Shown: positions 770-27,216 of the stretch, one piece after another
How positions within the stretch are numbered: position 1 is the stretch's first letter
Layout: the number at the start of each line of letters is the position of its first letter
From: an uncultured archaeon
GTDB lineage: Archaea > Iainarchaeota > Iainarchaeia > Iainarchaeales > Iainarchaeaceae
Direction: 5' to 3'
Assembly (NCBI GenBank): GCA_964577555.1
Contig: CAZNZM010000004.1
Span: forward strand, 55,300 to 87,299
Length of the DNA: 32,000 nt
Notes under the pieces: model-generated
Database searches by the model: none
What the model was told of the DNA's origin: nothing
What the model saw: only the letters and a program-made list of their open reading frames with translations
Translations under genes and position numbers: made by a program

Positions 770-1185
770 AACCTGCAAAAAAACTAAAATTACAAAATGA
801 AAAATTTCCAAAAAATGACAAAAAATTGGCTTTGGCAAAACAAAAGACAAAAAAATAACTGAATTAAAAAAAAAACAAATTCAAAATAAAAAAACGCCTG
901 ACAAAAAAATAATCCAGCAAAGCAAATAAAAAACGCCTAAAAAATTTTGTTTTGAAAAACAAGGCAAAAAAACTTGGCTAAGCAAAAAAAATGAAAATTG
1001 TCCCGCCAAAAAAAACAAAAAAGCTTGACATAACAAAATCAAAGACAAAAAAACTTCTAAAAATAGGTCAAAAAAAAGGCAAAATTAATTTTTTTTAGAA
1101 AGCAAATTAATAGTTGGCAACCAAAATAATAAAACAAAAATCATGACAAGACAATTGACAAAAATAAAAAATAATTTTTCAAAAT
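770..1185 (+). repeat. Poly-A-dominated intergenic island with anchor-motif copies and short internal repeats
   Basis: TTGGC-TTTGGC is at 826-836 (preceded by aaaaaatgacaaaaaa), TTGGCT at 974-979 and TTGGCA at 1114-1119. aaaaacgcct occurs twice (about 889 and 928), aaagacaaaaaaa twice (about 843 and 1041), and tcccgccaaaaaaaa is at 1002-1016. A rare T8 run is at about 1089-1096. Confidence 0.6.
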
Positions 1186-2352
1186 TTGATTTTAGCAATT
1201 AATAAAATAACATTACAATTTTTTTATCTAATGCTTGAAATAGTATTTTTTATAATAACATTACTTGGCCTTGCCATTGCATCTTACACTGACATAAAAC
1301 AAAGATTGGTTACAAACAACCTTGTTTATGCAATGGCTTTTTCCGGAATTTGCCTGAAACTCTTTGAAGCGATTTTAACCGAAAATTTCGAAACTTTCTT
1401 TTTTTCTGTTTTGGCTGGAGTTATTGGCTTTGGCTTGGCTTATGTATTGTGGAAGCTAGGAGTATGGGCAGGCGGAGATGTAAAACTCGTTACAGCAATA
1501 GCCGTTCTAAATCCGATGAATTACAGGGTAATTGGCAACACAATTGAAATAAACAACCAGTTATTTTCAACTTACAACATTCCCGTATTTTCAGCCACGC
1601 TGATAATTTATTCAGCCCTCCTGGCTATGCCGATAGGAATTTTAATGGTATTATCGGCTTCTCTTAAGGACAAAAAAGCACTTGAAAAAGTAAAAGAAAA
1701 AATAAGCAACAAATTTTGGAATTTAATACAAATAGCGATTATTATGTCTGTAGCAAAGCACTTGTTTCAAATTTATAAAATTTGGGAAGTTTGGACAATA
1801 ATTGTTTTATTGATTTTTTTATTCACGCCTAAAAATTTCAAAAATTACATTACAATCATTTCAACAATACTTGCACTTTTGCTCTTTGGCGAAAAATTTC
1901 TAATAGATGCGATTATTTACTCAATTCCAATAATGCTTCTTTACACCATGATTTCATTGTATAACGAAAGCAAAAACAAGGCTTTCAAGGAAGAAATACA
2001 TGTTTCAAAAATTTATGAAGGAGCAATACCTGACAATTATATTGTCATAAAAGACAAAAAACTGGAAGTTGTTGAAAAACTGAACATAAAAAGAGTTATT
2101 AATCACTTAATGAATAATAGAATTGCTGAGGCTATTGAAGAAATAAACCCAAAGGAAAAAGTTTTTGCAAGCCCGCTGCAAGCAGGCGGCCTTAGCGAAG
2201 AACAAGTCAAGGAGCTAAAACAAAAGGCTGAAAAAGGAATGGCGCCAAAAACAATTGTTGTAAAAAAAACAATGGCTTTCGTACCAACTATAATGATTGC
2301 ATACATAATTCTTCAAATCACAGGAGATATGCTATGGACAATAATATTTTAA
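1186..2352 (+). CDS. A24-family prepilin/preflagellin peptidase (FlaK/PibD/EppA-like) with a large soluble insertion
   Basis: The protein is polytopic. The first catalytic Asp context is IASYTDIKQR and the GxGD-type second site is WAGGDVKLVTAIAVLNP. A charged segment of about 120 aa precedes the last TM helix (KKTMAFVPTIMIAYIIL). The track start at 1186 is TTG; ATG at 1231 (MLEIVFF) is an alternative. Confidence 0.8.
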   Translation: MILAINKITLQFFYLMLEIVFFIITLLGLAIASYTDIKQRLVTNNLVYAMAFSGICLKLFEAILTENFETFFFSVLAGVIGFGLAYVLWKLGVWAGGDVKLVTAIAVLNPMNYRVIGNTIEINNQLFSTYNIPVFSATLIIYSALLAMPIGILMVLSASLKDKKALEKVKEKISNKFWNLIQIAIIMSVAKHLFQIYKIWEVWTIIVLLIFLFTPKNFKNYITIISTILALLLFGEKFLIDAIIYSIPIMLLYTMISLYNESKNKAFKEEIHVSKIYEGAIPDNYIVIKDKKLEVVEKLNIKRVINHLMNNRIAEAIEEINPKEKVFASPLQAGGLSEEQVKELKQKAEKGMAPKTIVVKKTMAFVPTIMIAYIILQITGDMLWTIIF

Positions 2353-2873
2353 AGAAAACAAAAGGCCAAGCCACAATGGAATTTCTTTTAACCCTCGTAA
2401 TAGGATTAATTTACATAGTAATTATTGTCCAACCAAACGCCGAAATTGCAAGCAAATCAATGGAAGACACTGCAAACATGGCAAAACTCAGGATTTCGGC
2501 TGACAAAATAATCCAAACACTAAAACACGTTTCAATTTCAGGAGAAGGGACAAAAGAAACAATCCAAATAGTCATTCCAAAAGATGCAAACATTACTTGT
2601 GGAACGTTTTATCCTGGACAAACCACTTCAAACCCGCAAGAACCCAATTCAATAAGATTTACTTACAAAACCAAATCAACTGATGCAACAGGGCCGTGTG
2701 AAATAGACTTTGATTATCCAAACGAAGGCAAATTATGCACAAAATTAATACAAGCAGGATTCACGTTTAAATGCGAAACACCAATAATAAGCATTCCGGG
2801 AATATACAAAGCAACAATACAAAAAACAAACGAAACGCCACCAGTCAAACTAAATTTCGAGCTGATAGAATGA
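2334..2873 (+). CDS. Pilin-like protein, class III signal peptide (KG/Q type)
   Basis: The leader is MDNNILKKTKGQATMEFLLTLVIGLIYIVIIV, with Q at +1 and E at +5 after the KG site. AGGAG lies 7 nt upstream of the ATG. The gene overlaps the peptidase 3' end by 19 nt. Confidence 0.7.
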   Translation: MDNNILKKTKGQATMEFLLTLVIGLIYIVIIVQPNAEIASKSMEDTANMAKLRISADKIIQTLKHVSISGEGTKETIQIVIPKDANITCGTFYPGQTTSNPQEPNSIRFTYKTKSTDATGPCEIDFDYPNEGKLCTKLIQAGFTFKCETPIISIPGIYKATIQKTNETPPVKLNFELIE

Positions 2874-3286
2874 ACAAAATAAAAGGACAAGCATCAGTGG
2901 AAATCGTGATAGGCTTCTCAATAGTCACAATGATTACAATACTGATTCTTTTCAAATGGCTTTCCGGAACAGAAGAAATAAACCAGACTGTCGGAGCAAG
3001 ATTAGCCACAATAAAATTAAACGACCTAAACTTTGATTCAAACAAATTCATGTTAAAAGGCTTTGAAAAAGAAATAATAAAATGCACAACACCAAGCGGT
3101 ACAGAAAAAATAAAAATAATGGCAACAATTTATCCAAACCCGAACGGAACAAATTTTGAAAATGAAATAGCAAACGAAATAAAAAACAAAATAAACCTAA
3201 TCACGGGAAAACCCCAAAACGAAATAGACATATACCTTAACGATCCAATAAAAGCACACCAAGACAAAGAAGCAGGATGCATATAA
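2870..3286 (+). CDS. Pilin-like protein, class III signal peptide
   Basis: The internal Met of ORF 2771-3286 gives MNKIKGQASVEIVIGFSIVTMITILILF (KG/Q, E at +5). ATG 2870 overlaps the upstream TGA (ATGA coupling). Confidence 0.65.
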   Translation: MNKIKGQASVEIVIGFSIVTMITILILFKWLSGTEEINQTVGARLATIKLNDLNFDSNKFMLKGFEKEIIKCTTPSGTEKIKIMATIYPNPNGTNFENEIANEIKNKINLITGKPQNEIDIYLNDPIKAHQDKEAGCI

Positions 3287-3290
3287 TTTG

Positions 3291-3320
3291 TTCGTCAATC
3301 AACGAATTTTAATGTTTTTC
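3291..3320 (+). terminator. Candidate terminator: short hairpin followed by oligo-T runs
   Basis: TTCGT (3291-3295) and ACGAA (3302-3306) form an inverted repeat with a 6-nt loop. It is followed by tttt and ttttt runs, which are rare on this T-poor strand, and lies just after the stop at 3286. Confidence 0.3.
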
Positions 3321-3336
3321 TGTATAAAATAAAAAC

Positions 3337-3693
3337 ATGCAAATAACACCAAACAAACTAACAACAACAGGGCTAATAATTGGAACAATCGGATTAATCG
3401 CACTAATACTTCTTATCCCTGAACCAACCCATCTAAAACCATACGAAATCACAAAAGAAAAAGAAAACCAAATAACCACAACAACAGGCACAATAACCAA
3501 CCTCACAATAAAAAACGGAAACGCGTTTTTCACAATAACAAGCCAAGGAAGCACAAAAGCATTCTTTTACAAACCAAACAAAGAACAAATACAACTGCTC
3601 AAAGAAGGAAAAAAAATCCAAGCAACCGGCAAAATAGCAATTTACAAAGGACAACCAGAAATAATAATCCAAAGAGTGATAGAAATTGATTGA
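3337..3693 (+). CDS. Membrane-anchored OB-fold (tRNA_anti-like) domain protein
   Basis: An N-terminal TM helix (GLIIGTIGLIALILLI) is followed by a pattern typical of small OB-fold domains: TGTITNLTIKNGNAFFTITSQGSTKAFFYK...GKKIQATGKIAIYKGQPEIIIQRVIEI. Confidence 0.45.
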   Translation: MQITPNKLTTTGLIIGTIGLIALILLIPEPTHLKPYEITKEKENQITTTTGTITNLTIKNGNAFFTITSQGSTKAFFYKPNKEQIQLLKEGKKIQATGKIAIYKGQPEIIIQRVIEID

Positions 3694-4849
3694 AGAAATT
3701 CTAATGCTAATAACAGGAATCATTGCAGGAACAATAACAGGCTTAATACCGGGATTGCACTCAAACACAATTGCACTTATAACAGCAACACTCCCATACG
3801 GAAATCCAATAAGCAAAATAATTTTCATCACAGCAATGGGAATAACACACTCAATAATAGAAACAATACCAACAATAATGCTCGGCGCCTCAAACGAAAA
3901 CACCATTCAATTGCTGCCAGGACACAAAATGCTGATGAAAGGACAAGGAAACGAAGCAATAATAACCAGCATAGCCGGAGCTCTTTTCACAATAATTTTC
4001 ACAGCACTTTTAACGCCAATAGTATTCACATTTGCAAAAGAATTCAATTGGATTCTGCCAATAACCATACCAGCAATAATATTTGCAATAGCAACTTTCA
4101 TGATAATAAAAGAAAAAAACAAAATAACAGCAACAATAATTTTCATAACAACCGCATTATATGGCTTTTTTCTTCTTGAATCCGGAATAAATGAAATAAT
4201 CTTCGCGTTAATAATAGGTTTTTACGCAATGCCTGGATTAATAGAAACAATAATAACAAAAACCGAAATACCAAAACAAAGAAAAAAAACAAAATTAAAA
4301 CTCAACCCATACTTTTCATTTTTAACAGCAATAATATCATCAATAACATCAATGCTCCCCGCACTTGGACCAACACACGCCGCCTTTATAGCAAACAGCC
4401 TCAAAGGAAAACTAACAACAAAAGAATACTTGATGTTAAGCGGCGGAATAAGCACAGGAAACCTCTTTTACAGCATATTAATGCTATATGCACTTGGAAA
4501 AACAAGGTCAGGAGTTTCAATTGCAATAGAAAAAATAATGCAACCAAACTTGGAACAAATAATACTTATTCTAGTTGCAGCATTATCAGCAGCAGGATTC
4601 GCCTGCGCAATAGCAACAAAACTCGGATTAAAAATATTCGAATTAATAAAAAAAATAAATTACAAAAAAATAACAATAACAGTACTCTTTTTATGCGCAA
4701 CAATAGTCGCAATATTTTCAGGAATTTTAGGATTAATAGCTTGCATTTCTGCAACAGCAATAGGCTTGGCAACCATCAAAGCCAAAATTTCAAGGGCACA
4801 CTGCATGGGTTTCCTGTTAGCACCATCAACCGCCTTCTACCTAAAATAA
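3686..4849 (+). CDS. Polytopic membrane protein, TctA/DUF112-like (COG1784-type)
   Basis: The protein has about 10 hydrophobic segments. The N-terminal GIIAGTITGLIPGLHSNT resembles the GxxxGxxPG(L/I) start of the TctA family, recalled from memory. It overlaps the upstream gene by 8 nt. Confidence 0.4.
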   Translation: MIEEILMLITGIIAGTITGLIPGLHSNTIALITATLPYGNPISKIIFITAMGITHSIIETIPTIMLGASNENTIQLLPGHKMLMKGQGNEAIITSIAGALFTIIFTALLTPIVFTFAKEFNWILPITIPAIIFAIATFMIIKEKNKITATIIFITTALYGFFLLESGINEIIFALIIGFYAMPGLIETIITKTEIPKQRKKTKLKLNPYFSFLTAIISSITSMLPALGPTHAAFIANSLKGKLTTKEYLMLSGGISTGNLFYSILMLYALGKTRSGVSIAIEKIMQPNLEQIILILVAALSAAGFACAIATKLGLKIFELIKKINYKKITITVLFLCATIVAIFSGILGLIACISATAIGLATIKAKISRAHCMGFLLAPSTAFYLK

Positions 4850-4904
4850 TCCAAACAGCAAAATAAACCGTTTTTTAAACATTAAAACACCAAAATAATA
4901 AACA

Positions 4905-5267
4905 ATGTACTATATCAAACGCACAACAGCAGAATCAATCATAATGGCTGCAAAAAACGTCTATCCAAAAGAATTTTTCTCAATGCTTGGCGGAAAAAAC
5001 AAAACAATAGACGAATTAGTAATAGTGCCAGCAATATTCGGAAACGACTCAGTAATATACGAACCTGAATATGTTCCAATAATGGACAGAATAATAGGCA
5101 CTGTTCACTCACACCCGACAAAAAACAACGAACCTTCAAACGAAGACATACAATCTTTTAGAAAAACCGGAAAAATACACATAATCATTTCATACCCTTA
5201 CAATTTAAATACGATGAAAGCCTTCGATAATAACGGAAAACAAGTAAAATTAGAAGTGATAGAATGA
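4905..5267 (+). CDS. JAB1/MPN/Mov34 (JAMM) metalloprotease domain protein
   Basis: The JAMM motif H-x-H-x7-S-x2-D is present as GTVHSHPTKNNEPSNEDI. An upstream Glu (YPKEFFSMLGG) is also consistent with the family. Confidence 0.75.
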   Translation: MYYIKRTTAESIIMAAKNVYPKEFFSMLGGKNKTIDELVIVPAIFGNDSVIYEPEYVPIMDRIIGTVHSHPTKNNEPSNEDIQSFRKTGKIHIIISYPYNLNTMKAFDNNGKQVKLEVIE

Positions 5268-5959
5268 AAGAACCAAAAAAACTAGTGTTGCTAAGACATG
5301 GAAAAACTGAATTCAACATTGAAAAAAAATTTTGCGGATGGACAGACATAGAACTTGGAAAAACAGGAGAAAAAGAAGCCAAAGAAGCCGGAAAATTGCT
5401 TGCAGAAAACAACTACACATTTGATGTGTTTTACACATCTTTTCTCAAAAGAGCAATACAAACAACATGGATAATACAACAACAAACCGACTTGATGTGG
5501 ACACCACTAATAACCACTTGGAGGCTAAACGAAAGACATTACGGAGCATTACAAGGAATAAAACACGAAGAAATGGAAAAAAAATACGGAAAAGAACAAG
5601 TATTCCTATGGAGAAGAAGCTACAAAACAAAGCCACCACAACTGGAAAAAACAGACCCAAGAAACCCTGCAAACGAAACCAAATACAAAAACCTCAAACC
5701 AACACAAATACCCTTAGGAGAAAGCCTTGAAGACACAGTCAAAAGAGTCATACCTTACTGGAAAAAAGAAATAGCCCCAAACATAAAAAAAGGCAAAAAA
5801 ATACTTATATCTGCACATGGAAACAGCATAAGAGCCCTTGTGAAATACATTGAAAACATACCTGACGACGAAATACCAAAAGTAGAAATACCAACAGCAA
5901 AACCAATAATATACGAATTAGACAACAACCTCAAACTAATAAAAAAATACGACTTATAA
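5264..5959 (+). CDS. gpmA: 2,3-bisphosphoglycerate-dependent phosphoglycerate mutase
   Basis: Matching motifs are LVLLRHGKTEFNIEKKFCGWTDIEL (the RHG catalytic His motif), RLNERHYGALQG, VFLWRRSYKTKPP and ISAHGNSIRAL. There is an ATGA overlap with the JAMM gene. Confidence 0.9.
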   Translation: MKEPKKLVLLRHGKTEFNIEKKFCGWTDIELGKTGEKEAKEAGKLLAENNYTFDVFYTSFLKRAIQTTWIIQQQTDLMWTPLITTWRLNERHYGALQGIKHEEMEKKYGKEQVFLWRRSYKTKPPQLEKTDPRNPANETKYKNLKPTQIPLGESLEDTVKRVIPYWKKEIAPNIKKGKKILISAHGNSIRALVKYIENIPDDEIPKVEIPTAKPIIYELDNNLKLIKKYDL

Positions 5960-6263
5960 AAAAAACAAATAAACCAAAAAAAAAGAAAAAAAAGCCACAA
6001 TTCAAAAAAAATAGTTGACACGCAAAAAAAGAAACGAGTTGGAAAAATAAAGACAAAAAAAATAGTTGAATTAAAAAAAAAAGCTAACCAAAACAAACAA
6101 CCAAACAAAAAAACCTTAAAAAAAATTAACACACAAAAATTTAATTAAAAAAAAACGAATACAAAAGAAAAAAATAATAAGCAAAGCACATTTGCAAAAC
6201 CGGTTATTTTAACAAAGCAGAACCAAACGCTAATTTTATTATAACAAAACACATATAGGTTTT
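5960..6263 (+). repeat. Poly-A-dominated intergenic island with internal short repeats
   Basis: caaaaaaaatagttga occurs twice (about 6003 and 6053), and there is a weak copy of the anchor motif (aagctaaccaaaacaaacaac). No ORF is supported. Confidence 0.5.
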
Positions 6264-6272
6264 TTGACTAAA

Positions 6273-6701
6273 ATGAAAAAAAACAAAGGACAAATGAGCA
6301 TTGACATGTTATTGGCAATAATAATAGCACTACTACTAATAAGCACCATTGACATTTACACAAAAATACTGCAACAAGACACAAAACAAATTACGGAAAA
6401 AAACACAGCAAGGTCAATACTTCTAAAAGTCTACAATGCAACAGCAAACGCAAAAGCGTATGGACAAACAATAGACCTAAACGTTTTACAAGGAAACATG
6501 ACGGAAAAAAAAACAAACTGCGAAATAAGATTAGACAAAACAGATCCAAACAAACATTACATAAAAATAAAATACGAAAAAGAAGACGCAAATTACAGCG
6601 GCATTGACCTTGAAAATATTGAAATAGAATTCCCAAAAGGAACGAACAAAACCAACACAAACATACCTTGCAACAAACAAATCACAATAAAAACAAGCTA
6701 A
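6273..6701 (+). CDS. Pilin-like protein, class III signal peptide
   Basis: The leader is MKKNKGQMSIDMLLAIIIALLLISTI (KG/Q, Asp at +5). The track ORF begins at TTG 6264; ATG 6273 is preferred. Confidence 0.65.
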   Translation: MKKNKGQMSIDMLLAIIIALLLISTIDIYTKILQQDTKQITEKNTARSILLKVYNATANAKAYGQTIDLNVLQGNMTEKKTNCEIRLDKTDPNKHYIKIKYEKEDANYSGIDLENIEIEFPKGTNKTNTNIPCNKQITIKTS

Positions 6702-6716
6702 AAGGAACGGATAAAA

Positions 6717-7247: not shown

Positions 7248-7519
7248 AAGGAATGATATTCTCCCCAGACGCCATGCTTGGAATAGCAATAATAATACTC
7301 TTATTTTCCTCAATAACACTAACCACTTGGACGGAACCAAAAAAAGCATCGCAAAAAAACCTAACATACCAAAAAGCCACTGACGAAGCAATATGGCGAT
7401 TCTACACCAAAAGTACTGACAACACCATTCCAAACAACGAAGACTTAATCTGCGCCACCATAATAGAATTCTCAGATGCAACTGATGACATAACAACAAA
7501 GGTGAAAGTATGCAAATAG
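7238..7519 (+). CDS. Small pilin-like protein, class III signal peptide
   Basis: The internal Met of ORF 7190-7519 gives MEIKGMIFSPDAMLGIAIIILLFSSITL. GGTGAG lies 4 nt upstream. It overlaps the upstream gene by 10 nt. Confidence 0.5.
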   Translation: MEIKGMIFSPDAMLGIAIIILLFSSITLTTWTEPKKASQKNLTYQKATDEAIWRFYTKSTDNTIPNNEDLICATIIEFSDATDDITTKVKVCK

Positions 7520-15074: not shown

Positions 15075-15095
15075 TACTCGCCCAAAAACTAATTA

Positions 15096-18468: not shown

Positions 18469-18475
18469 AAAAAAC

Positions 18476-20523: not shown

Positions 20524-20572
20524 AAAACCACCAAAAAATGTATTTATAATAATGAATTCATAATATATAAAG

Positions 20573-21973
20573 ATGAAGATTAACACAAACCAAGAAAAAA
20601 TACTAAAAAAAGTACTAAAAAAAATAACGCCCAAAAAAAAACACGAAAAAAAACAATTAGAATTTGCAAAAAAACTAATAGAAAAAATAAAAACAACAAA
20701 AGGACCGCATTTGGATGCAGAACTCGTTGGCTCGGTGGCAAGAGGAACACACTTGTCAGGCGACAACGACCTTGACATATTCGTATTCTACCCCCCTGAA
20801 ATTCCAAGAGAAAAATTCGAAAACCACGGAATTGCTCTAGGAAAACAAATATTCAAAGGACACAAATGGGAATTAGCATATTCAGAACACCCATATGTAA
20901 GAGGAACAATATCCGGACACAAAGTTGAAATAATCCCGACATATAAAATTAGAGACACGTCACTAATGAAAAGCGCAGTTGACAGAAGCCCATTCCACAA
21001 CAATTATTTAAAAGAAAAACTCACGCCACAACTATGCAACGAAATAAGGTTACTCAAACAATTCATGAAAGGAATAAAATGCTACGGGGCTGACCTAAGC
21101 ATGAACAGCTTCCCAGGATACGTTGCAGAACTGCTAATAATAAAATACGGCAGTTTTATTGATACGTTAAAAGCAGCATCAAATTGGAAAAAAAACCAAG
21201 TAATAGACATAGAAAATTCATATATGGAAGAAGAAGCCATAAAAAAATTCGGCAACCACCACTTCATAATAATAGATCCAGTTGATATTAATAGAAACGT
21301 CGCAGCGGCACTATCAGAACAACAATATGCAAGATTCATAAGCGCAAGCAGAAAATTCCTTGAAAAACCATCACACAAATTCTTTTTCCAAAACAAACAC
21401 AAACCATTAAGCAAAAAAAAACTACAGAAATACTTAGACAAAACAGAAATAGTCGCAATAAAATTCAAATACCCAAAAAAAGTAATAGAAGACCAAATGT
21501 GGGGACAACTTAAAAAACTGGCAAAAAAAATAACAACAATGGCAAAAGAACAAGAATTCAACATAAAAAGACAAGGAGAATGGCTAAAAAAAGACGACAT
21601 AATGATAATAGTACTAGAACTAGAATCAAAAAAACTGCAAAAAGCAAGAATACAAACAGGGCCAGAAGTATTTGACGCAGAAAACTCAAAAGCTTTCCTA
21701 GAAGCACACAAAAAACCATTTTCAGGACCAAGAATAGAAAACACAAGATGGATAGTTGAAACAGAAAGAAAATACACAAATATAGAAGATTACATAACCA
21801 AACTACTCAAAAAATTTAAAAAAGAAGAAAAAGAAGACCTGCGCAAAGCAATAAAACAAGGAACAAAAATCTTGAACGAAAAAGAAATAAAAAAACTGTA
21901 CGAGACCAACAATGAATTCAGCAAATTTTTTACAACATTTCTAAAGGGAAAAGAAGAATTTTTAGAATACTAA
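20573..21973 (+). CDS. cca: Archaeal class I CCA-adding enzyme (tRNA nucleotidyltransferase)
   Basis: Motifs are LVGSVARGTHLSGDNDLDIFVFYP, SEHPYVRG, EIIPTYK and VDRSPFHNNYL. The length is 466 aa. Confidence 0.9.
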   Translation: MKINTNQEKILKKVLKKITPKKKHEKKQLEFAKKLIEKIKTTKGPHLDAELVGSVARGTHLSGDNDLDIFVFYPPEIPREKFENHGIALGKQIFKGHKWELAYSEHPYVRGTISGHKVEIIPTYKIRDTSLMKSAVDRSPFHNNYLKEKLTPQLCNEIRLLKQFMKGIKCYGADLSMNSFPGYVAELLIIKYGSFIDTLKAASNWKKNQVIDIENSYMEEEAIKKFGNHHFIIIDPVDINRNVAAALSEQQYARFISASRKFLEKPSHKFFFQNKHKPLSKKKLQKYLDKTEIVAIKFKYPKKVIEDQMWGQLKKLAKKITTMAKEQEFNIKRQGEWLKKDDIMIIVLELESKKLQKARIQTGPEVFDAENSKAFLEAHKKPFSGPRIENTRWIVETERKYTNIEDYITKLLKKFKKEEKEDLRKAIKQGTKILNEKEIKKLYETNNEFSKFFTTFLKGKEEFLEY

Positions 21974-22259
21974 AAAATAAAAAAAACAAATAAAAAAATT
22001 GGCTCACAAAAAAAACAAAATTCAATTAAAAAAAAAATAAAAAAAACAACTTGACAAAAAAAATAATTAGCAAAAAAAAGAATTCAAAAAAAAAGAAAAA
22101 TGACAAAAAAACTTGGCTCACAAAAAACAAACAACAAAAAAAATAATTAAATTTTTTAAAAAATAAAAAAAACTATCACAAAAAATCAAAAACTAACAAA
22201 ACAAACAATTAAAAACAACAACCTTAAAAAGAAATCAAATATAAAAATAAATCAAGGGG
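21974..22259 (+). repeat. Poly-A-dominated intergenic island with two exact anchor-motif copies
   Basis: TTGGCTCAC is at 21999-22007 and 22113-22121. The second copy is preceded by aaaatgacaaaaaaac and followed by aaaaaacaaacaacaaaaaaaataatt. Confidence 0.65.
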
Positions 22260-22271
22260 GTGCAAAGACAA

Positions 22272-22835
22272 ATGGAAATACTAACCTTAATCACAATAAT
22301 AATAATCGCAATAATCGCCATTGCCGCAATTTGGCTTGTACTGACATACAACAGCCTCATCTACCTAAAAAACCAAGCGGAAAACTCGTGGAGCCAAATA
22401 GACGTACAACTCAAAAGAAGATACGACCTAGTACCAAATCTGATAGAAACAGTCAAAGCATATGCAAAACACGAAAAAGAAACATTCACACAAGTAATAG
22501 AAGCAAGAAATAAAATAACTGCTGCAAAAACTACAAAAGAGAGAGCCGAAGCCGAAAACATTCTAACAGGCGCATTAAAATCAATATTTGCACTGGCAGA
22601 AGATTATCCAAAACTCCAAGCAAACCAAAACTTTCTAATGCTCCAAGAAGAATTATCAGGAATAGAATCAAAAATTGCATTTGCAAGACAATTTTACAAC
22701 GATACGATAATGAGCTACAACAATGCAATACAACAATTCCCCACAACACTAATAGCTGAAATGCTCGGGTTCAAAAAAAGAGAATACTTTGAAATAGAAA
22801 CAGAAGCAAAAGCACCAATAAAAATAAAATTCTAA
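22272..22835 (+). CDS. lemA: LemA family protein
   Basis: The LemA core YNSLIYLKNQAENSWSQIDVQLKRRYDLVPNLIETVKAYAKHEKETF follows one TM helix. AGGGGGTG lies about 10 nt upstream of ATG 22272; the track starts at GTG 22260. Confidence 0.9.
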   Translation: MEILTLITIIIIAIIAIAAIWLVLTYNSLIYLKNQAENSWSQIDVQLKRRYDLVPNLIETVKAYAKHEKETFTQVIEARNKITAAKTTKERAEAENILTGALKSIFALAEDYPKLQANQNFLMLQEELSGIESKIAFARQFYNDTIMSYNNAIQQFPTTLIAEMLGFKKREYFEIETEAKAPIKIKF

Positions 22836-22864
22836 AAAATAAAAAAACTACCAAAGTGGTCAAA

Positions 22865-23758
22865 ATGTGGAACAAAATAGCGGAGAACAAAAGAAACACA
22901 TGGCTACTAATAATAGGATTCTCCGCATTCATCTTTTTACTAGCATGGATATTCGGAGAAATATATGGCTCAGGACTATTCGGCATAATCATAGGAGCAA
23001 TATTCCTCAGCATTTATACAATAATAAACTATTTCTATGGCGCTAACATAATACTAATGATAAGCAACGCAAAAGAAGTAAAAAAAGAAGAATACCCTTA
23101 TCTATTCAATATAATAGAAGGGCTTTCAATTGCAGCAGGAATACCAAAACCAAAAGCATACATTATTGAAGACACAGCACTCAACGCATTCGCAACAGGC
23201 AGAGACCCAAAACACGGAATAGTAGTAGTTACAACAGGAATACTAAAAAAACTCAACAGACAAGAATTGGAAGGGGTCATTGCACACGAAATAAGCCACA
23301 TAAAAAACTACGACATAAGACTAATGCTATTCGTGTCAGTATTTGTAGGCATAACAGCATTACTCAGCGACTTGCTACTCAGATCAGTAATTTGGGGAAA
23401 AGAAAGAAGAGAAATTGGAAAAGCGGAAATCATATTAATTATAGTCGCAATACTTTTGGCAATAATATCACCAATAATAGCAACAATAATCAAGCTTGCA
23501 ATTTCAAGAGAACGCGAATTTTTGGCAGACGCTTCAGGAGCATTGCTAACAAGAAACCCAGAAGGCTTAGCATCAGCACTTGAAAAAATAAGCCAAGACA
23601 AAGAAGTGCTTGAAGCAGCAAACAGCGCAACAGCACACCTCTACATAGACAACCCATTAAAAAACAGAAAAAGCGCAATAGGCTTCCTTGACAAAATGTT
23701 CCTCACACACCCGCCAATAGAAGAAAGAATAGCAAGACTAAGAAACATAACACAATAA
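22865..23758 (+). CDS. htpX: M48 family zinc metalloprotease HtpX homolog
   Basis: The HExxH motif is VIAHEISHIKNYD. Other matches are NAFATGRDPKHGIVVVTTG, REREFLADASGALLT and LTHPPIEERI, with four TM segments. ATG 22865 is preferred over GTG 22856. Confidence 0.9.
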   Translation: MWNKIAENKRNTWLLIIGFSAFIFLLAWIFGEIYGSGLFGIIIGAIFLSIYTIINYFYGANIILMISNAKEVKKEEYPYLFNIIEGLSIAAGIPKPKAYIIEDTALNAFATGRDPKHGIVVVTTGILKKLNRQELEGVIAHEISHIKNYDIRLMLFVSVFVGITALLSDLLLRSVIWGKERREIGKAEIILIIVAILLAIISPIIATIIKLAISREREFLADASGALLTRNPEGLASALEKISQDKEVLEAANSATAHLYIDNPLKNRKSAIGFLDKMFLTHPPIEERIARLRNITQ

Positions 23759-23973
23759 AAAAAAGAATTTAAAATCCAAAAAAATATTTCATTAAAAAAA
23801 AGACAAACAAACAATTTGAAATTTCAAAAAAACTTGGCAAAAAAAACACCCGCCAAAAAAAATACAAAAAAAGAATTTAATTAAAAAAAATAATTCGAAT
23901 TGGCTTGCAAAACAAACAACAAAAAAACATGCCTCAAAAAAAAGATGAAAAAAAACAAATTAAAACTAAAAAG
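23759..23973 (+). repeat. Poly-A-dominated intergenic island flanking tRNA-Arg (3' side of the tRNA)
   Basis: TTGGCA is at 23834-23839 and TTGGCTTGC at 23900-23908, followed by aaaacaaacaacaaaaaaa. A cacccgccaaaaaaaa sub-motif is also seen at 1002-1016. Confidence 0.6.
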
Positions 23974-24048
23974 CGGACCCGAGGGGATTCGAACCCCCGA
24001 CCTTACGCTCCGAAGGCGTCTGCTCTATCCTGGCTGAGCTACGGGCCC
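23974..24048 (-). tRNA. tRNA-Arg (anticodon TCG), no encoded CCA
   Basis: The reverse complement GGGCCCGTAGCTCAGCCAGGATAGAGCAGACGCCTTCGGAGCGTAAGGTCGGGGGTTCGAATCCCCTCGGGTCCG folds as a cloverleaf. The acceptor is GGGCCCG/CGGGTCC, the D stem GCTC/GAGC, the anticodon loop CTTCGGA and the T arm GGGGG-TTCGAAT-CCCCT. Confidence 0.85.
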
Positions 24049-24207
24049 AAAAAAATCAAAACAAACAAAAATAAAAGTAAAAACACTTTAAAAAACGAAA
24101 AAACAAAGAAAAACATGAAACTTGGCTCAAAAAAAGACAAAAAAAGCCAGTTATCAACCTTTTTAAAACTTGCCAAACAATGAATAGTAAAAAAAAGGTG
24201 TCAATTA
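24049..24207 (+). repeat. Poly-A-dominated island on the 5' side of tRNA-Arg
   Basis: TTGGCTCAA is at 24122-24130, followed by an A-run. The Lys-rich ORF 23905-24183 spans this island and is antisense to the tRNA. Confidence 0.5.
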
Positions 24208-24360
24208 ATGAAAACATGCATTACAACAAACAAAATATTGACAGACGACTTTATAGAATTCAAATGCCCTGAATGCGGCACTAAAATAGCAAGAAGCATT
24301 TTGGCAAGAAAAAAAAGCTTAGAATATACTTGCAAAGAATGCGGATTCAAAGGACCATAG
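24208..24360 (+). CDS. Small Zn-ribbon protein (COG2888/DUF1610-like, translation-associated)
   Basis: Hand translation gives MKTCITTNKILTDDFIEFKCPECGTKIARSILARKKSLEYTCKECGFKGP, with TAG at 24358-24360. AGGTG lies 8 nt upstream. It sits immediately upstream of EF-1beta, the recalled conserved neighbourhood. Confidence 0.6.
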   Translation: MKTCITTNKILTDDFIEFKCPECGTKIARSILARKKSLEYTCKECGFKGP

Positions 24361-24371
24361 AAGGACTCGCC

Positions 24372-24635
24372 ATGCCAAGCAAAACAATGCTAATCATAAG
24401 AGTAAAACCAGAAGAAATGGAAAAAATAGACAAAATAATAGAATCAATAAAAAAAATAAAAACTGGAGAAGTAAGAGAAGTCAGAAAAGAGCCAATAGGA
24501 TTCGGAATAGAACTTATAAAAGCAGGAATACTAGTGCCATCAGAAGACGAAACAATGCCAGAAAAAGTCATAAAAGAAATAACAAAAATCAAAGGCGTTG
24601 AAGAAGCAGAAGTAGAAGGAATGACCCTTTTATAA
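24372..24635 (+). CDS. ef1b: Translation elongation factor aEF-1 beta
   Basis: The internal Met of ORF 24330-24635 gives an 87-aa protein. It contains IIRVKPEEMEKIDKI...EVRKEPIGFGIELIKAGILVPSEDE...ITKIKGVEEAEVEGMTLL, which matches the archaeal EF-1beta pattern (EEPIAFGL...I.GV...EV). Confidence 0.8.
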   Translation: MPSKTMLIIRVKPEEMEKIDKIIESIKKIKTGEVREVRKEPIGFGIELIKAGILVPSEDETMPEKVIKEITKIKGVEEAEVEGMTLL

Positions 24636-24655
24636 ATCACAAAAAAAACAGACAC

Positions 24656-24667
24656 TTAAAATTATAA
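24656..24667 (+). promoter_or_regulatory. TATA-like box upstream of rad50
   Basis: ttaaaattataa is centred about 29 nt upstream of ATG 24691. Confidence 0.35.
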
Positions 24668-24690
24668 CACCTTATTCAAAGCAATAATTT

Positions 24691-26748
24691 ATGATTAAAA
24701 TACTGGAACTTGAAAACTGGAAAACACACAAAAAAACCCGCCTAGAATTCGAAAAAGGAACAAACGTAATAGTAGGAAAAATGGGAAGCGGGAAATCATC
24801 AATACTTGACGCAATCTCCTTTGCACTATATGGCACATTTCCGTCATTAGTAGCAAAAAAAATAACACTTGAAGAAACAATGATGGCAAAACCCACAAAA
24901 CAAGACATAACAAAAGTAAAACTAATATTCGACTACAACGGCAAAGAATACGAAGTAGAAAGAATAATAAAAAGAAACGGAACCAACGAAGGCTCTCTCA
25001 GAGAATCGGGAAAACTTATTGCGGGGCCAAAAACAAGCGACATAACAAAAAAAATTTCCGAAATAATAGAATCAAACTACGACCTGTTCAGCAGAGCAAT
25101 ATACTCCGAACAAAACCAAATAGACTTCTTCCTAAAAATGACGCCAGCACAAAGAAAAGAAAAACTCGACGAATTACTGGGCTTGGACAAATACGAAAAA
25201 GTAAGATCAAACGCATCCACACTAGCCACCAGAATAAAAAAAATCGCAGAAGACAAGAAAAAAATACTTGAAGACCAAAAAAAGAAAAACAACCCAAACC
25301 AAATAACAGAATATGAAAAACGAATAAATGAAAAAAAAACAGAACTTGAAAGAATAGAAAAATCAATACAACAAACAGAAACAACACTAAAACAAAAGGA
25401 AACAACACTAAAAAAACTTGAAGAAACTGAAAGATTATTTAAGACACTCAAAGAAACAGAAATAAGAGAAAAATCCAAGTTGGAATCAATAATAGAACAA
25501 ATAGAAGCAGGAAAGAAAAAAACAGAAAAAATAAACCCGGAAACAATAAACAAAAAAATCACAGAACTGCAAAACCAACTAACAACAGAAGAAGAAAACA
25601 AAAAAAAATTAGAAAACGAAAAAAAAGAACAAGAAAAAAAAATAACAAACTCAAAAGAAAAAAAAGCAGCTGCAAACAGCATGCTCAACCTAAACACTAA
25701 AAATTCAACAAACATTGCAAGCCTAAAAGCAAATTGCCCAATATGCAGAAAACCACTGACAGAACACGACAAAGAAAAACTTTCAAAAGAAATGAAGGAA
25801 GAACAGGAAAACCTGATAAAACAAATAAAAGAAATAGAAAAAGAAATAGCAAATACTTCAACAAAAATAAACGAAATAGAAAAAAAAATAGCAAACACTG
25901 AACAAAACAAAGAAACACTGCAAAAAGAGATAATTGAAAACAAAAGACTATTAGAAATAGCAAACGAAATAACAACAAAAGAAAAACAAAAAACAATCAT
26001 AGAAGAAAACCTAAAGAAAAACTCGCAAACCATTGCAGAATTAAATTTTGACGAAAAACAACTCAAAGAAGCAAGAAACGAATATTACGCATTGAGAGAA
26101 AAAATGACAAAAGAAAGAACAACAGCCATTTCAACAAAAGACATTATAAAAGAACTTGAAGAAACATACAAAAGAATAAAAGACACACAAAAACAAATGA
26201 TTGAACTTGAAAATCAGATAAAAGAATACGAAACAGCAGCAGAAAAAATGACAATATTCACAAGCGCAACAATGGCAACACAAGCAGAGTTAAGAAATCT
26301 AATGGTGGAAAACATCAACATGGCAATGGAAGAACTCTGGCCGAAAATCTATCCTTACGGCGATTTCTCGCAAATAAAAATAATAGTCAAAGAAGGAAGC
26401 TACGAAATAATGGCGAAACAAAAAAACAATGAATGGACAAGAATAGAAGGAATACTATCAGGCGGAGAAAGAAGCGCAGCAGCAATAACAATAAGAATAG
26501 CGCTTTCCCTGGTGCTTACCCAAAACCTTGGCTGGATAATGCTGGACGAACCAACACACAACCTTGATGCAAACTCAGTAAACAGGCTTGCAGAAACCCT
26601 TGGAACATACCTCCCACAAATCATTGAACAAATTTTCATAATAACACACGACAAAGAAATGGAAAACGCTGCATCTGGAAAATTATACATTTTTGAAAGA
26701 GAAAAAGAAGAAGACGCTCCAACAAAAATAAACAACATAGAAAAATAA
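24691..26748 (+). CDS. rad50: Rad50 DNA double-strand break repair ATPase (short coiled-coil form)
   Basis: Walker A is VGKMGSGKSSILDAISFALYG. A long K/E-rich coiled coil carries the CxxC zinc hook ANCPICRKPL. The signature is LSGGERSAAAITIRIALS, Walker B is IMLDEPTHNLD and the H-loop is FIITHD. Confidence 0.9.
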   Translation: MIKILELENWKTHKKTRLEFEKGTNVIVGKMGSGKSSILDAISFALYGTFPSLVAKKITLEETMMAKPTKQDITKVKLIFDYNGKEYEVERIIKRNGTNEGSLRESGKLIAGPKTSDITKKISEIIESNYDLFSRAIYSEQNQIDFFLKMTPAQRKEKLDELLGLDKYEKVRSNASTLATRIKKIAEDKKKILEDQKKKNNPNQITEYEKRINEKKTELERIEKSIQQTETTLKQKETTLKKLEETERLFKTLKETEIREKSKLESIIEQIEAGKKKTEKINPETINKKITELQNQLTTEEENKKKLENEKKEQEKKITNSKEKKAAANSMLNLNTKNSTNIASLKANCPICRKPLTEHDKEKLSKEMKEEQENLIKQIKEIEKEIANTSTKINEIEKKIANTEQNKETLQKEIIENKRLLEIANEITTKEKQKTIIEENLKKNSQTIAELNFDEKQLKEARNEYYALREKMTKERTTAISTKDIIKELEETYKRIKDTQKQMIELENQIKEYETAAEKMTIFTSATMATQAELRNLMVENINMAMEELWPKIYPYGDFSQIKIIVKEGSYEIMAKQKNNEWTRIEGILSGGERSAAAITIRIALSLVLTQNLGWIMLDEPTHNLDANSVNRLAETLGTYLPQIIEQIFIITHDKEMENAASGKLYIFEREKEEDAPTKINNIEK

Positions 26749-27216
26749 AATGAATAAAACGGCTCACCAAAAAAACGCCAAACAAAACAAAAGACTGCTC
26801 AAAATAAAAAAAATACAAAAAAATAGCCAAACACAAAAAAACTATAAAATCAAAAAAACGGCTCACAAAACAAACAACAAAAAAAGTAAATTCCAAATAA
26901 AAAAACAAACCACTCTACAAAAAAATGACAAAAAAAACGGCTCACTAAAAAAATTAAAAAAAACGTTCAAAAAAAAATCATGAAAAAAAATTGCCTAAAA
27001 AAAAACGGCTCGGAAAAAAACAAAATTTCAAACAAAAAAATACCGAACAAAAAAATAATTCAAAAAAAATGACAAAAAGTGGCTAAAACAAAAAAAACAA
27101 AATTAATTTTAAAAAAATAATTAAAAAAAAATTCTAAAAAAAACAAATCACAAAAAAAACACGCTTAAAAAAATACTTGGATCGCAAAAACAAAAAAAAT
27201 AAAAACAACAAAAAAA
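26749..27216 (+). repeat. Roughly 470 bp degenerate tandem array of A-run plus anchor-motif units between convergent genes
   Basis: CGGCTCAC is at 26760, 26859 and 26938; CGGCTCGG at 27006; GTGGCTA at 27079; TTGGATCGC at 27177. Spacing is about 70-100 bp. aaaatgacaaaaa modules lie at about 26924 and 27066, and aaaaataatt modules are also present. Confidence 0.7.

What the first reader, a model, noticed from the sequence alone, without database searches (positions are those of the whole stretch)
770..27216. Strand-polarised dispersed motif TTGGCTCAC-(A)n confined to poly-A intergenic islands (at least 18 copies)
Eight intergenic islands are dominated by A-runs punctuated by a recurring GC anchor. 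The islands are 770-1185, 5960-6263, 9467-9715, 16782-16990, 21974-22259, 23759-23973, 24049-24207 and 26749-27216. Exact or near-exact (T/C)GGCTCAC copies are at 9529, 21999, 22113, 26760, 26859 and 26938. Variants GGCTCGC, GGCTCGG, GGCTCAA, GGCTTGC, GGCTAGC, GGCTAAGC and GGATCGC are at 16867, 16920, 27006, 24122, 23900, 9573, 974 and 27177. Looser copies are at 826, 1114, 23834 and 27079. Many copies share a longer module: aaaatgacaaaaa upstream (811, 22098, 26924, 27066), then aaaacaaacaacaaaaaaa, then (a)ataatt downstream. Every copy I saw is on the + strand, whether the flanking genes are tandem, convergent or divergent. I noticed no reverse-complement copy (GTGAGCC). This is not a CRISPR array, not an obvious promoter or terminator layout, and has no terminal inverted repeats like a MITE. 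Strand-polarised dispersed motifs are reminiscent of architecture-imparting sequences such as KOPS or Chi, of protein-binding arrays, or of a family of small A-rich transcripts. The function is unknown.
Basis: seen in the sequence. Interest (0 to 1): 0.75.

Follow-up and report, generated by a model that had tools for sequence, protein, structure and literature searches.

The report
Strand-locked repeats in A-rich spacers
The GGCTCAC-type motif is real and sits almost only on one strand of the long A-rich gaps between genes of a small DPANN archaeon, but it looks like the core of a fast-changing, lineage-specific repeat whose single orientation follows from an extreme, mitochondria-like difference in base composition between the two DNA strands.

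Summary
GGCTCAC occurs 6 times, all on the + strand and all in A-rich intergenic islands (0.96 expected). The degenerate core GGCT[CTG][AG][CG] occurs 10 times on + and 0 on - in 2.5 kb of islands (0.18 expected), against 13 and 12 elsewhere.

The window is a DPANN (Diapherotrites-like) archaeal chromosome piece. Its + strand is A- and C-rich whichever way a gene points. Third codon positions read A 0.6, C 0.22, G 0.06, T 0.12 on the + strand for genes on both strands, and codon usage is mirror-imaged between the strands. The islands have the same composition, so their poly-A polarity reflects this DNA-strand asymmetry.

The motif is the core of longer modules copied between islands. A sister lineage (third codon positions about 82% identical) has bigger islands built partly by a 450-720-nt inter-island duplication. 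Its anchors are only partly conserved. Relatives at about 59% identity lack both islands and motif, even one with clear skew.

I found no hairpin, no inverted ends, no fixed TATA spacing and no Rfam match.

Best reading (about 0.5): proliferating and decaying direct-repeat DNA, with orientation locked by the strand asymmetry. A strand-specific replication or binding signal is not excluded.

The parts
768..1231 (+). Island 1 (between + strand genes): A-rich spacer with degenerate anchors at 826 (TTGGCTTTGGC), 974 (TTGGCTAAGC) and 1113 (GTTGGCAACC), and a TGAC-A6 word at 816
5960..6263 (+). Island 2 (between + strand genes): A-rich spacer. It has no intact GGCT anchor. It shares a 34-62-nt module with island 1 (843-875 matches 6049-6082 at 91%)
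   Evidence: (D11)
9467..9715 (+). Island 3 (between divergent genes): anchors at 9528-9536 (ATGGCTCAC) and 9573-9581 (TTGGCTAGC). The sister-lineage orthologue is 536 bp with 5 anchors
16782..16990 (+). Island 4 (between convergent genes): anchors at 16867-16875 and 16919-16927 (T/TGGCTCGC), degenerate CGACTCGCC at 16822, and a CAAGCCAC word at 16838. One of the only two sites that vary within the population is here (16807, A or C)
21974..22272 (+). Island 5 (between + strand genes): anchors at 21999-22007 and 22113-22121 (TTGGCTCAC), CTTGAC-A8 at 22052, and degenerate CTATCAC at 22173. The block 22189-22271 next to the gene (lemA promoter and 5' UTR) is conserved in the sister lineage
23759..23972 (+). 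Island 6 (+ strand gene converging on the tRNA): anchor at 23900-23908 (TTGGCTTGC) and a truncated anchor CTTGGC at 23829-23834, which is the full CTTGGCTTGCC in the sister lineage
23973..24048 (-). tRNA-Arg (TCG). It separates islands 6 and 7. The gene and its upstream promoter region (24049-24100) are conserved
24049..24208 (+). Island 7 (between divergent genes): anchor at 24122-24130 (TTGGCTCAA). The island aligns end to end with the sister lineage (80% over 176 nt), yet this anchor reads CTCG--TCTAA there
26749..27216 (+). Island 8 (between convergent genes, 468 bp). Anchors: 26759-26767, 26858-26866 and 26937-26945 (ACGGCTCAC), 27005-27013 (CGGCTCGG), 27079-27087 (GTGGCTAAA) and 27177-27185 (TTGGATCGC). 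The second site that varies within the population is here (a 3-nt indel at 26982). A gene caller places a 77-aa lysine-rich ORF at 26750-26983, which is probably spurious
27675..27798 (+). A-rich spacer between two - strand genes, with no anchor. The RpoK promoter block at 27675-27700 is 100% conserved in the sister lineage
22097..22151 (+). Best-preserved full module: AAAATGACAAAAAAA-CTTGGCTCAC-AAAAAACAAACAACAAAAAAAA-TAATTAAA. The stretch 22105-22127 is 100% identical to L005 6138-6160
1..32000 (.). Background feature that sets the polarity. The + strand is A 46%, C 20%, T 21%, G 14%. Third codon positions are A-rich and G-poor on the + strand for genes on both strands. GC skew is negative and AT skew positive in every 1-kb window, so the cumulative GC skew falls steadily across the window

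Best explanation
The motif is the best-preserved core of a lineage-specific, non-coding family of direct repeats. Its consensus is A5-N-W-Y-GGCT-B-R-C-M-AAAA. Copies often carry TGAC-A7-8 upstream and A4CAAACAAC-A7 or A8-GAC-A8 downstream. These repeats make up the unusually long intergenic spacers of this DPANN archaeon.

Shown:
(1) This stretch of chromosome has an extreme compositional asymmetry between the DNA strands that does not depend on transcription direction. The islands have the composition of third codon positions, so they sit near the mutational equilibrium, apart from the anchors.
(2) Modules of 20-200 nt, and one 450-720-nt colinear stretch, have been copied between islands 5-17 kb apart, always in direct orientation. 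Islands differ 1.4- to 3.6-fold in length between sister lineages.
(3) Individual anchors are truncated, decayed or substituted between sister lineages.
(4) More distant relatives lack both islands and anchors.

Inferred: islands grow by local slippage or unequal exchange, and by ectopic copying between A-rich tracts (gene conversion or template switching). They erode under the strand-specific pressure towards A into A7-8 runs, which appear to be capped at about 9. An A-rich tract can only pair with another A-rich tract in direct orientation, and the asymmetry has one sign across the whole region. Any GC-rich word carried in a founder unit is therefore spread and kept in one orientation. On this reading the polarity is a by-product, not a signal.
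For: Strand asymmetry. Third codon positions expressed on the + strand are A about 0.6, C 0.22, G 0.06 and T 0.12 for both + and - strand genes. The same holds in L005, L076 and the contig extension. Codon usage is mirror-imaged: four-fold codon families use NNA at 47-73% in + genes and NNT at 54-77% in - genes. Island composition is A 0.62, C 0.15, G 0.076 and T 0.157.

Enrichment and polarity.

Copying between islands. L005 5221-5319 matches 10996-11092 (100 nt aligned, 94% identity). L005 5515-5548 matches 11125-11158 (34 nt, 100%). L005 5754-5944 matches 11249-11441 (196 nt aligned, 86%). All three pairs are colinear, and the first two are more alike than the neutral divergence between the two lineages (third codon positions 82% identical). 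All island-to-island BLAST hits are plus/plus. A roughly 95-nt module is shared by L076 island 3 and L005 island 5.

Island sizes, window against sister lineage: 249 and 536; about 300 and 1086; 468 and 675.

Anchor turnover. 24122 is decayed in L005 inside a fully alignable island. 23829 is truncated in the window. 26858 reads CAC where L005 reads TGC.

Distribution among relatives. L071, L072 and L009 (about 59-60% identity in the CCA-adding enzyme) have no islands or anchors at the same gene junctions, although L072 shows clear strand skew.

Other points. Both differences among independent assemblies of this population lie in islands. A-run lengths peak at 7-8 (83 and 92 observed, 20 and 12 expected) and none reaches 11. 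TRF finds 15-18-nt and 52-62-nt periods. No structure, inverted ends or fixed promoter geometry was found.
Against: DPANN genomes are compact, and several convergent gene pairs in this window overlap or are 1-51 nt apart. Spacers of 200-1100 bp with no function would therefore be surprising.

The GG of the anchors appears to be kept at roughly 55-60% of putatively orthologous sites. About 27% would be expected from the neutral retention of G at third codon positions (90 of 172). However, aligners preferentially pair rare GGCT words in low-complexity sequence, so this estimate is biased.

One anchor module (22105-22127) is 100% identical between the lineages.

The origin of the founder GC-rich word is unexplained.

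Only about 57 kb from two lineages could be examined. No genome-wide count was possible.
Confidence: 0.5

Rival explanations
1. The anchors are strand-specific, replication-linked cis elements. They could be preferred priming or initiation sites for the discontinuously made (or delayed) strand, or polar binding sites for a fork-associated protein. The chromosome would then be replicated very asymmetrically or in one direction. The same process would produce both the extreme skew and the single orientation.
For: Orientation follows the DNA strand, not the flanking genes: tandem, convergent and divergent junctions all carry + strand copies. The asymmetry has the A+C-rich against G+T-rich form expected from long single-stranded exposure of one strand. 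A chromosome-wide disparity attributed to unidirectional replication has been proposed for a CPR bacterium (PMC7143001). GG retention at orthologous anchors may exceed neutral expectation.
Against: L072 has clear skew independent of gene orientation but no anchors or islands, so the skew does not need them. Copies are clustered, up to 6 in 468 bp, rather than spaced. Individual copies decay. No hairpin of the mitochondrial OriL type is supported (3 observed, 2.05 expected, P=0.33). The family is confined to one genus-level lineage.
Confidence: 0.13
2. The anchors are transcription-related elements. They could be an initiator or initially transcribed sequence of promoter-like units, for example BRE/TATA-22 nt-GTGAGCC on the - strand as at 22121-22157. 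They could be binding sites for a regulator. They could be 3'-end signals for + strand mRNAs, which lack oligo-U terminators on the A-rich strand.
For: In the module at 22113-22157 the - strand reads AAAAAA-TTTAATTA-22 nt-GTGAGCC, with G at the predicted +1 (read from the sequence). T is mildly enriched at +20 to +30 and at -23 to -29 relative to GGCT (0.22-0.28 against a 0.15 background). An anchor often lies 3-40 nt after the stop codon of + strand genes. The full form TTGGC-NN-GCCAA is a palindrome typical of sites bound by dimeric proteins (L005 5971 and 7821).
Against: No TATA-like box lies at a fixed distance on either side across 36 anchors. Orientation ignores the direction of flanking genes. 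Any - strand transcript would meet a T7-8 terminator within about 10 nt. Promoter blocks next to genes are conserved between lineages while the anchors are not. Several convergent gene pairs have no spacer at all, so no termination buffer is needed. There is no Rfam match or predicted structure.
Confidence: 0.15
3. The modules are non-autonomous mobile elements that insert strand-specifically at the replication fork. IS200/IS605-type or RAYT-mobilised elements behave this way, and it would give a single orientation relative to replication.
For: The copies are dispersed in many islands and have recently spread between islands. Their orientation is tied to the DNA strand.
Against: There are no subterminal hairpins, no terminal inverted repeats, no defined ends, no uniform length and no target-site duplications. 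The duplicated stretches are colinear segments of variable length (20-720 nt), as expected from recombination or template switching rather than from a discrete element. The gene calls and their Pfam annotations for about 57 kb show no transposase.
Confidence: 0.08
4. The motif is a chance by-product of base composition or an assembly artefact.
For: The 9-mer with up to 2 mismatches is at chance level over the whole window. Low-complexity A-rich DNA produces many weak repeat hits.
Against: The exact 7-mer occurs 6 times against 0.96 expected. The degenerate core in islands occurs 10 times against 0.18 expected, and GGCT is 59-fold over mononucleotide expectation. The sequence is identical in independent assemblies from several samples.
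Confidence: 0.02

Closest known systems
Chromosome-wide strand composition disparity in CPR bacteria (Ca. Chazhemtobacterium aquaticus Ch65, Collierbacteria, Beckwithbacteria; Kadnikov et al. 2020, PMC7143001)
   Same: One DNA strand is strongly enriched in particular bases regardless of how genes are distributed between the strands. The cumulative skew is monotonic. The organism is ultra-small with a reduced genome.
   Different: Ch65 shows only a G/C disparity (C 29.8%, G 15.0%) and no A/T disparity. Here A/T dominates: overall AT skew is +0.38 and GC skew -0.18, rising to about +0.65 and -0.5 at third codon positions. The organism is an archaeon. Only about 42 kb of this genome could be seen, so 'chromosome-wide' is not shown. 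The text searched in that paper mentions no poly-A islands or oriented repeat family.
Vertebrate mitochondrial heavy/light strand asymmetry (from my own knowledge)
   Same: One strand is A+C-rich and the other G+T-rich. Codon usage is mirror-imaged and amino-acid usage shifted according to the coding strand (here Thr 7.7% against 2.1%, Val 3.3% against 10.2%). The magnitudes are comparable.
   Different: This is a cellular chromosome carrying housekeeping genes on both strands. No OriL-like stem-loop is supported. The replication mode is unknown.
Dispersed intergenic repeats of prokaryotes (REP/BIME, MITEs, ERIC and similar)
   Same: Short, multi-copy, confined to intergenic regions, lineage-specific, variable in copy number between close relatives.
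   Different: There is no palindrome or hairpin, no terminal inverted repeats and no defined ends. Copies are almost all in one orientation. They are embedded in low-complexity A-runs and grade continuously into decayed forms.
Architecture-imparting sequences (KOPS/FtsK-orienting sequences, Chi)
   Same: A short asymmetric oligomer with strong strand bias that does not depend on gene orientation.
   Different: Architecture-imparting sequences are spread along the whole replichore, including coding DNA. This motif is at background level and unbiased outside the islands (13 against 12). It is clustered, decaying and restricted to one lineage. The cognate motor proteins (FtsK, RecBCD) are bacterial.
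Degenerate minisatellites and poly(dA:dT)-rich intergenic DNA of AT-rich eukaryotes (from my own knowledge)
   Same: Low-complexity A-tract spacers with short periodic units (15-18 nt and 52-62 nt by TRF), fast length change, and growth by slippage or unequal exchange.
   Different: Found in a compact archaeal genome. All tracts are on one strand because of the strand asymmetry. A-runs are sharply capped at about 9.

Membership tests
Architecture-imparting sequences (KOPS/Chi type) | Strong strand bias of an asymmetric oligomer, independent of gene orientation | tested here: met
   10 on + and 0 on - in the window islands. 33 against 4 pooled.
Architecture-imparting sequences (KOPS/Chi type) | Over-represented and skewed along the whole replichore, coding DNA included | tested here: not met
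   Outside the islands 13 on + and 12 on - in 29.5 kb, which is background density.
Architecture-imparting sequences (KOPS/Chi type) | Orientation switches at the origin and terminus, and a cognate translocase or nuclease is present | not testable with these tools
   Only about 42 kb of the genome was reachable and it contains no skew switch. The public collections scanned do not contain the lineage.
MITE | Terminal inverted repeats, and copies of defined and similar length | tested here: not met
   No inverted repeats flank the modules. Shared stretches vary from 17 to 196 nt aligned.
MITE | Target-site duplications | tested here: inconclusive
   None was seen, but the ends lie in A-runs where duplications cannot be recognised.
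REP/BIME or IS200/IS605-derived palindromic elements | Imperfect palindrome forming a stable hairpin | tested here: not met
   3 of 43 anchors have a perfect 6-nt reverse complement within 60 nt, against a null of 2.05 (P=0.33). Fold z-scores are -0.1 to +1.2, except island 4 at -1.7 and -2.2. The left arm varies while CAAGCC stays constant, so there is no compensatory change.
REP/BIME or IS200/IS605-derived palindromic elements | A cognate Y1 transposase or RAYT gene in the genome | not testable with these tools
   None appears in the gene calls and Pfam annotations for about 57 kb. The whole genome was not available.
CRISPR array | Constant-length direct repeats separated by unique spacers of similar length | tested here: not met
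   Anchor spacing is 45-114 nt and irregular. The 'spacers' are A-rich and themselves repeated.
Archaeal promoter (BRE/TATA plus initiator) | TATA box centred about 26 nt upstream of the start site | tested here: not met
   In the base profile of 36 aligned anchors, T frequency never exceeds 0.28 at -23 to -29 or at +20 to +30, against a 0.15 background. Single modules fit, such as 22113-22157, but the family does not.
Structured non-coding RNA family | Match to a known covariance model, or a fold more stable than shuffled sequence | tested here: not met
   Rfam at gathering threshold and at E<=1 finds only tRNA-Arg. Folds are not better than shuffles.
Degenerate tandem or minisatellite repeat | Head-to-tail units with recognisable periodicity | tested here: inconclusive
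   TRF reports periods of 15-18, 52 and 62 nt with 62-88% matches in the islands. Autocorrelation of non-A positions is weak.
Chromosome-wide strand composition disparity (as in CPR Ch65) | Base skew of one sign that does not depend on the coding strand | tested here: met
   Third-position composition on the + strand is the same for + and - strand genes in the window, its extension, L005 and L076. Codon usage is mirrored.
Chromosome-wide strand composition disparity (as in CPR Ch65) | Monotonic cumulative skew over the whole closed chromosome | not testable with these tools
   GC skew is negative in every 1-kb window of the 32 kb, so the cumulative GC skew falls steadily. The base composition stays A-rich with C above G for a further 9.8 kb, apart from one 1-kb window at parity. 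No closed genome is available.

The most novel reading that the evidence does not exclude
The anchors and their flanking A7-8 tracts are cis-acting, strand-specific replication elements. They could be priming or loading sites on the strand that stays single-stranded longest. The archaeal chromosome would then be copied in a strongly asymmetric, mitochondria-like or unidirectional way. One mechanism would explain the mitochondria-grade strand asymmetry, the mirrored codon usage and the one-strand motif.
Probability: 0.07. Interest if true: 0.9.

Novelty: new variant of a known kind. Interest (0 to 1): 0.55.

Why it matters
The motif family looks like ordinary repeat DNA. Its setting does not. 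Here a cellular, archaeal chromosome segment has two strands that differ in composition as much as the strands of mitochondrial DNA. Codon usage is mirror-imaged and amino-acid usage is shifted according to which strand a gene lies on. Intergenic DNA has run to A7-8 tracts on one strand only.

If this holds for the whole genome, the organism is a natural experiment in three things:
- how replication-linked mutation bias shapes proteomes;
- how such bias locks the orientation of repeats;
- how spacers can expand in an otherwise compact DPANN genome.

It would also give a practical handle on replication direction in uncultured DPANN archaea, where origins are poorly known.

For annotation, the islands attract spurious lysine-rich ORF calls, and skew-aware gene models are needed.

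Tried and rejected
Hairpin or OriL-like stem (GGCTTG...CAAGCC). It was tempting in single cases (L069 17125, L005 7925). It is not enriched (3 observed, 2.05 expected, P=0.33) and shows no compensatory changes.

Promoter reading on the - strand. It fits exactly at 22113-22157, but the aligned profile of 36 anchors shows no TATA at a fixed distance.

Termination buffer for + strand genes. Rejected because several convergent gene pairs overlap or are 1-51 nt apart.

Protein coding. The 77-aa lysine-rich ORF at 26750-26983 carries the motif in different reading frames. Indels that break the frame separate it from the sister lineage. It has no relatives in the protein collection.

Relics of tRNA genes. 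The anchor resembles the D-arm of the tRNA only weakly, and no T-arm remnants lie at the right spacing (read from the sequence).

Public-collection searches.
- The search for related loci with Rad50 in genome contigs found nothing.
- The pattern GGCTYRCAAAACAAACAAC gave 24 hits in genome contigs, each locus with one match, in unrelated bacteria, and 35 in metagenome contigs. All are in unskewed sequence, so they are background.
- The source lineage is not in those collections, so no genome-wide count could be made.

Walking along the 64-kb source contig stopped at window coordinate about 41.8 kb, because only proteins encoded in the window may be looked up.

Full report
WHAT THE WINDOW IS. Pfam hits identify an archaeal chromosome segment with real genes on both strands. 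These include ABCE1, Pelota/eRF1, Elp3, the CCA-adding enzyme, Rad50, NurA, RpoK, TYW3, an archaeal prepilin peptidase and a PilB/FlaI-type ATPase. There is one tRNA-Arg on the - strand at 23973-24048. Homologues of the CCA-adding enzyme and of a DUF4139 protein are labelled Candidatus Diapherotrites, a DPANN group. The same sequence was assembled independently in several JGI and Logan samples, with only two differences.

CHECK OF THE OBSERVATION. GGCTCAC occurs six times. All copies are on the + strand and all are in the A-rich islands, against 0.96 expected. AAAATGACAAAAA occurs 4 times against 0.20 expected, and AAAACAAACAACAAAAAAA 3 times against 0.18. Over the whole window the 9-mer with up to two mismatches is at chance level (51 found, 57.8 expected). 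Inside the 2.5 kb of islands the degenerate core GGCT[CTG][AG][CG] occurs 10 times on + and never on -, against 0.18 in dinucleotide shuffles. Outside the islands it occurs 13 times on + and 12 on -. In about 5 kb of islands from the window and its sister lineage, GGCT is 59-fold over mononucleotide expectation (40 found, 0.68 expected). Thirty-six aligned anchors give the consensus A5-[A/C]-[T/A]-[T/C]-GGCT-[C/T/G]-[G/A]-C-[A/C]-AAAA.

THE KEY CONTEXT: A DNA-STRAND ASYMMETRY. The + strand is A 46%, C 20%, T 21% and G 14%. AT skew is positive and GC skew negative in every 1-kb window. Third codon positions, expressed as + strand bases, are about A 0.6, C 0.22, G 0.06 and T 0.12 for genes on the + strand and also for genes on the - strand. 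The same holds in the 9.8-kb contig extension and in the sister lineage. Codon usage is mirror-imaged. For Gly, Ala, Thr and Pro, + strand genes use NNA at 65-73% (Val 47%) and - strand genes use NNT at 54-75% (Val 77%). Lys AAA is 96% in + genes and 42% in - genes. Phe TTT is 50% and 95%. Amino-acid usage shifts too: Thr 7.7% against 2.1%, Val 3.3% against 10.2%. The asymmetry therefore belongs to the DNA strand, not to transcription. The islands (A 0.62, C 0.15, G 0.076, T 0.157) have essentially the composition of third codon positions. They look like sequence at the mutational equilibrium, and that alone explains why every island is poly-A on the same strand. A precedent exists in CPR bacteria, but for G/C only (PMC7143001).

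WHAT THE MOTIF BELONGS TO. The anchor is the core of longer modules that recur in different islands, always in direct orientation. Within the window:
- 9508-9565 matches 21979-22035 (86%);
- 22104-22146 matches 26851-26889 (88%);
- 23908-23927 matches 26866-26885 (100%);
- 16828-16854 matches a spacer 17 kb further on (27 nt, 100%).
Common arrangements are TGAC-A7-8-(CTT)GGCTCRC, anchor-A4CAAACAAC-A7, anchor-A8-GAC-A8, and anchor-spacer-C(C)AAGCC-A8-GAC-A8-TTTAATTTTT. CTTGAC-A8 and TGAC-A7 equal CTTGGCTCAC and TGGCTCAC minus GCTC, so they may be deletion derivatives. That last point is my inference from the sequence. The intact anchors are accompanied by a graded series of decayed forms, such as CGACTCGCC, CAGCTCGCC, TTGTCTCAC, CTATCAC and TTGGATCGC. 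A-run lengths in the islands peak sharply at 7-8 (83 and 92 observed, 20 and 12 expected) and stop at 9-10. The same ceiling holds outside the islands.

COMPARATIVE EVIDENCE. A sister lineage (L005 and L076) has a CCA-adding enzyme 91% identical and third codon positions about 82% identical. It is syntenic, has the same strand asymmetry and has the same kind of islands. In three of the four fully compared junctions the islands are larger: 536 against 249 bp, 1086 against about 300, and 675 against 468. The tRNA-flanking pair is about equal (472 against 450). Blocks next to genes are conserved. These are the lemA promoter and 5' UTR, the promoter of the aS21-like gene, the upstream region of the tRNA and the RpoK promoter. 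The rest aligns poorly, with large indels.

Anchors are only partly conserved. The one at 22113 is identical. The one at 24122 lies in an island that aligns end to end, yet it is decayed in the sister. The one at 23829 is truncated in the window. The one at 26858 reads CAC where the sister reads TGC.

In the sister lineage a 720-nt stretch of the CCA-LemA island is colinear with 445 nt of the Rad50-S17e island. The shared blocks are 100 nt at 94%, 34 nt at 100% and 196 nt at 86% (alignment lengths). The first two are more alike than the neutral divergence between the lineages, so copying between islands continued after the split.

Three relatives at about 59-60% identity keep the gene order but have short spacers and no anchors. 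For example, the Rad50-S17e gap is 4 bp in L071. One of them, L072, has a clear skew independent of gene orientation without any anchors. Pattern scans of GTDB species genomes and of the metagenome collection returned only background hits in unskewed, unrelated sequence.

TESTS OF FUNCTIONAL READINGS.
- Structure: no Rfam family other than tRNA, even at E<=1. Module folds are no better than shuffles, except weakly in island 4.
- Hairpin: the GGCTTG/CAAGCC idea is not enriched (P=0.33) and lacks covariation.
- Promoter: one module reads as a textbook BRE-TATA-22 nt-initiator on the - strand, but the aligned family shows no TATA at a fixed distance. Any such transcript would also meet a T7-8 run at once.
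- Orientation ignores the flanking genes, which argues against a role tied to local transcription.
- Mobile element: no inverted ends, no defined length, and no transposase in the gene calls and Pfam annotations for about 57 kb.
- Coding: the ORFs called in the islands are lysine-rich, not conserved in frame and absent from the protein collection.

MOST LIKELY EXPLANATION (about 0.5). The motif is the least-eroded core of a lineage-specific family of direct repeats that builds these spacers. Islands grow by slippage or unequal exchange and by ectopic copying between A-rich tracts. They erode towards A7-8 runs under the strand-specific mutation pressure. A-rich tracts can only pair in direct orientation, and the asymmetry has one sign across the region. 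Embedded GC-rich words are therefore spread and kept in one orientation.

The asymmetry, the copying, the turnover and the narrow lineage distribution are shown. The copying mechanism and the absence of function are inferred.

The main caveats are these. Long functionless spacers are odd in a compact DPANN genome. The GG of anchors may be kept more often than neutral G sites, although alignment bias makes this uncertain. Only about 57 kb from two lineages could be examined.

RIVALS. They are a replication-linked strand-specific signal (0.13), a transcription- or binding-related element (0.15), strand-specific mobile elements (0.08) and chance or artefact (0.02).

VERDICT. The motif itself is probably an ordinary repeat. 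The extreme strand asymmetry, independent of transcription, in an archaeal chromosome is the surprising part. In the searches I made of the held paper library I found no report of it for archaea.

Noticed in passing
window 1-32000 (also L069 11093-21092, L005, L076): There is an extreme asymmetry between the two DNA strands that does not depend on gene orientation. Third-position AT skew is about +0.65 and GC skew about -0.5 on the + strand for genes on both strands. Codon usage is mirror-imaged and amino-acid usage differs between + and - strand genes (Thr 7.7% against 2.1%, Val 3.3% against 10.2%, Phe 4.0% against 8.3%).
   Followed up: yes
window 1231-2352 (+), 27405-27674 (-), 30067-30648 (-), 30742-31833 (+): Four genes show much weaker third-position AT skew (0.14-0.31) than their neighbours (0.5-0.9). 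They may have been acquired or relocated recently. Three are the prepilin peptidase, RpoK and NurA; the fourth (30067-30648) has no Pfam match.
   Followed up: no
window islands and whole window; L005, L069: A-run lengths pile up at 7-8 and stop at 9-10, with none of 11 or more, both in the islands and in the rest of the window. This suggests a hard ceiling on homopolymer length. The window's own variant at 16807 makes an A9 run where the other assemblies have C followed by A8.
   Followed up: partly
L005 5221-5944 and L005 10996-11441: In the sister lineage, two islands 5.7 kb apart share a colinear segmental duplication in direct orientation. The shared blocks are 86-100% identical.
   Followed up: yes
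window 26750-26983 and 16756-16944 (gene calls in L001, L069, L073); L005 5972-6103, 10979-11194: Gene callers place lysine-rich ORFs of 36-77 aa inside the islands. They are not conserved in frame and have no relatives, so they are probably spurious.
   Followed up: partly
window 7510-8052/8039-9466; 13180-14217/14219-14584; 18437-19006/18949-20586: Several convergent gene pairs overlap or are 1 nt apart, while other junctions carry 200-470-bp islands. Spacer expansion is therefore very uneven along the same stretch.
   Followed up: no
L072 3092-3122 and 3187-3218: A relative at about 59% identity has two copies of a roughly 29-nt direct repeat (GATTTAAAACCCTTATTAAAAGTTCTATC) about 95 nt apart, in the gap between ABCE1 and Pelota. 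I did not examine it further.
   Followed up: no
L071 17000-20401: The HerA (DUF87) homologue of a relative without skew carries an intein with a LAGLIDADG endonuclease domain.
   Followed up: no
window 1-770: Three tandem paralogues of a pilin-like protein with a class III signal peptide lie at the start of the window. Two independent 64-kb assemblies end at window positions about 172-187, which is probably a break caused by these repeats.
   Followed up: no
protein P0121 (window 9716-11254): The protein collection records this exact protein on a contig of 119,670 bp, and NCBI is among its listed sources. That contig was not among the places returned. It would nearly double the sequence available for this genome.
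   Followed up: no
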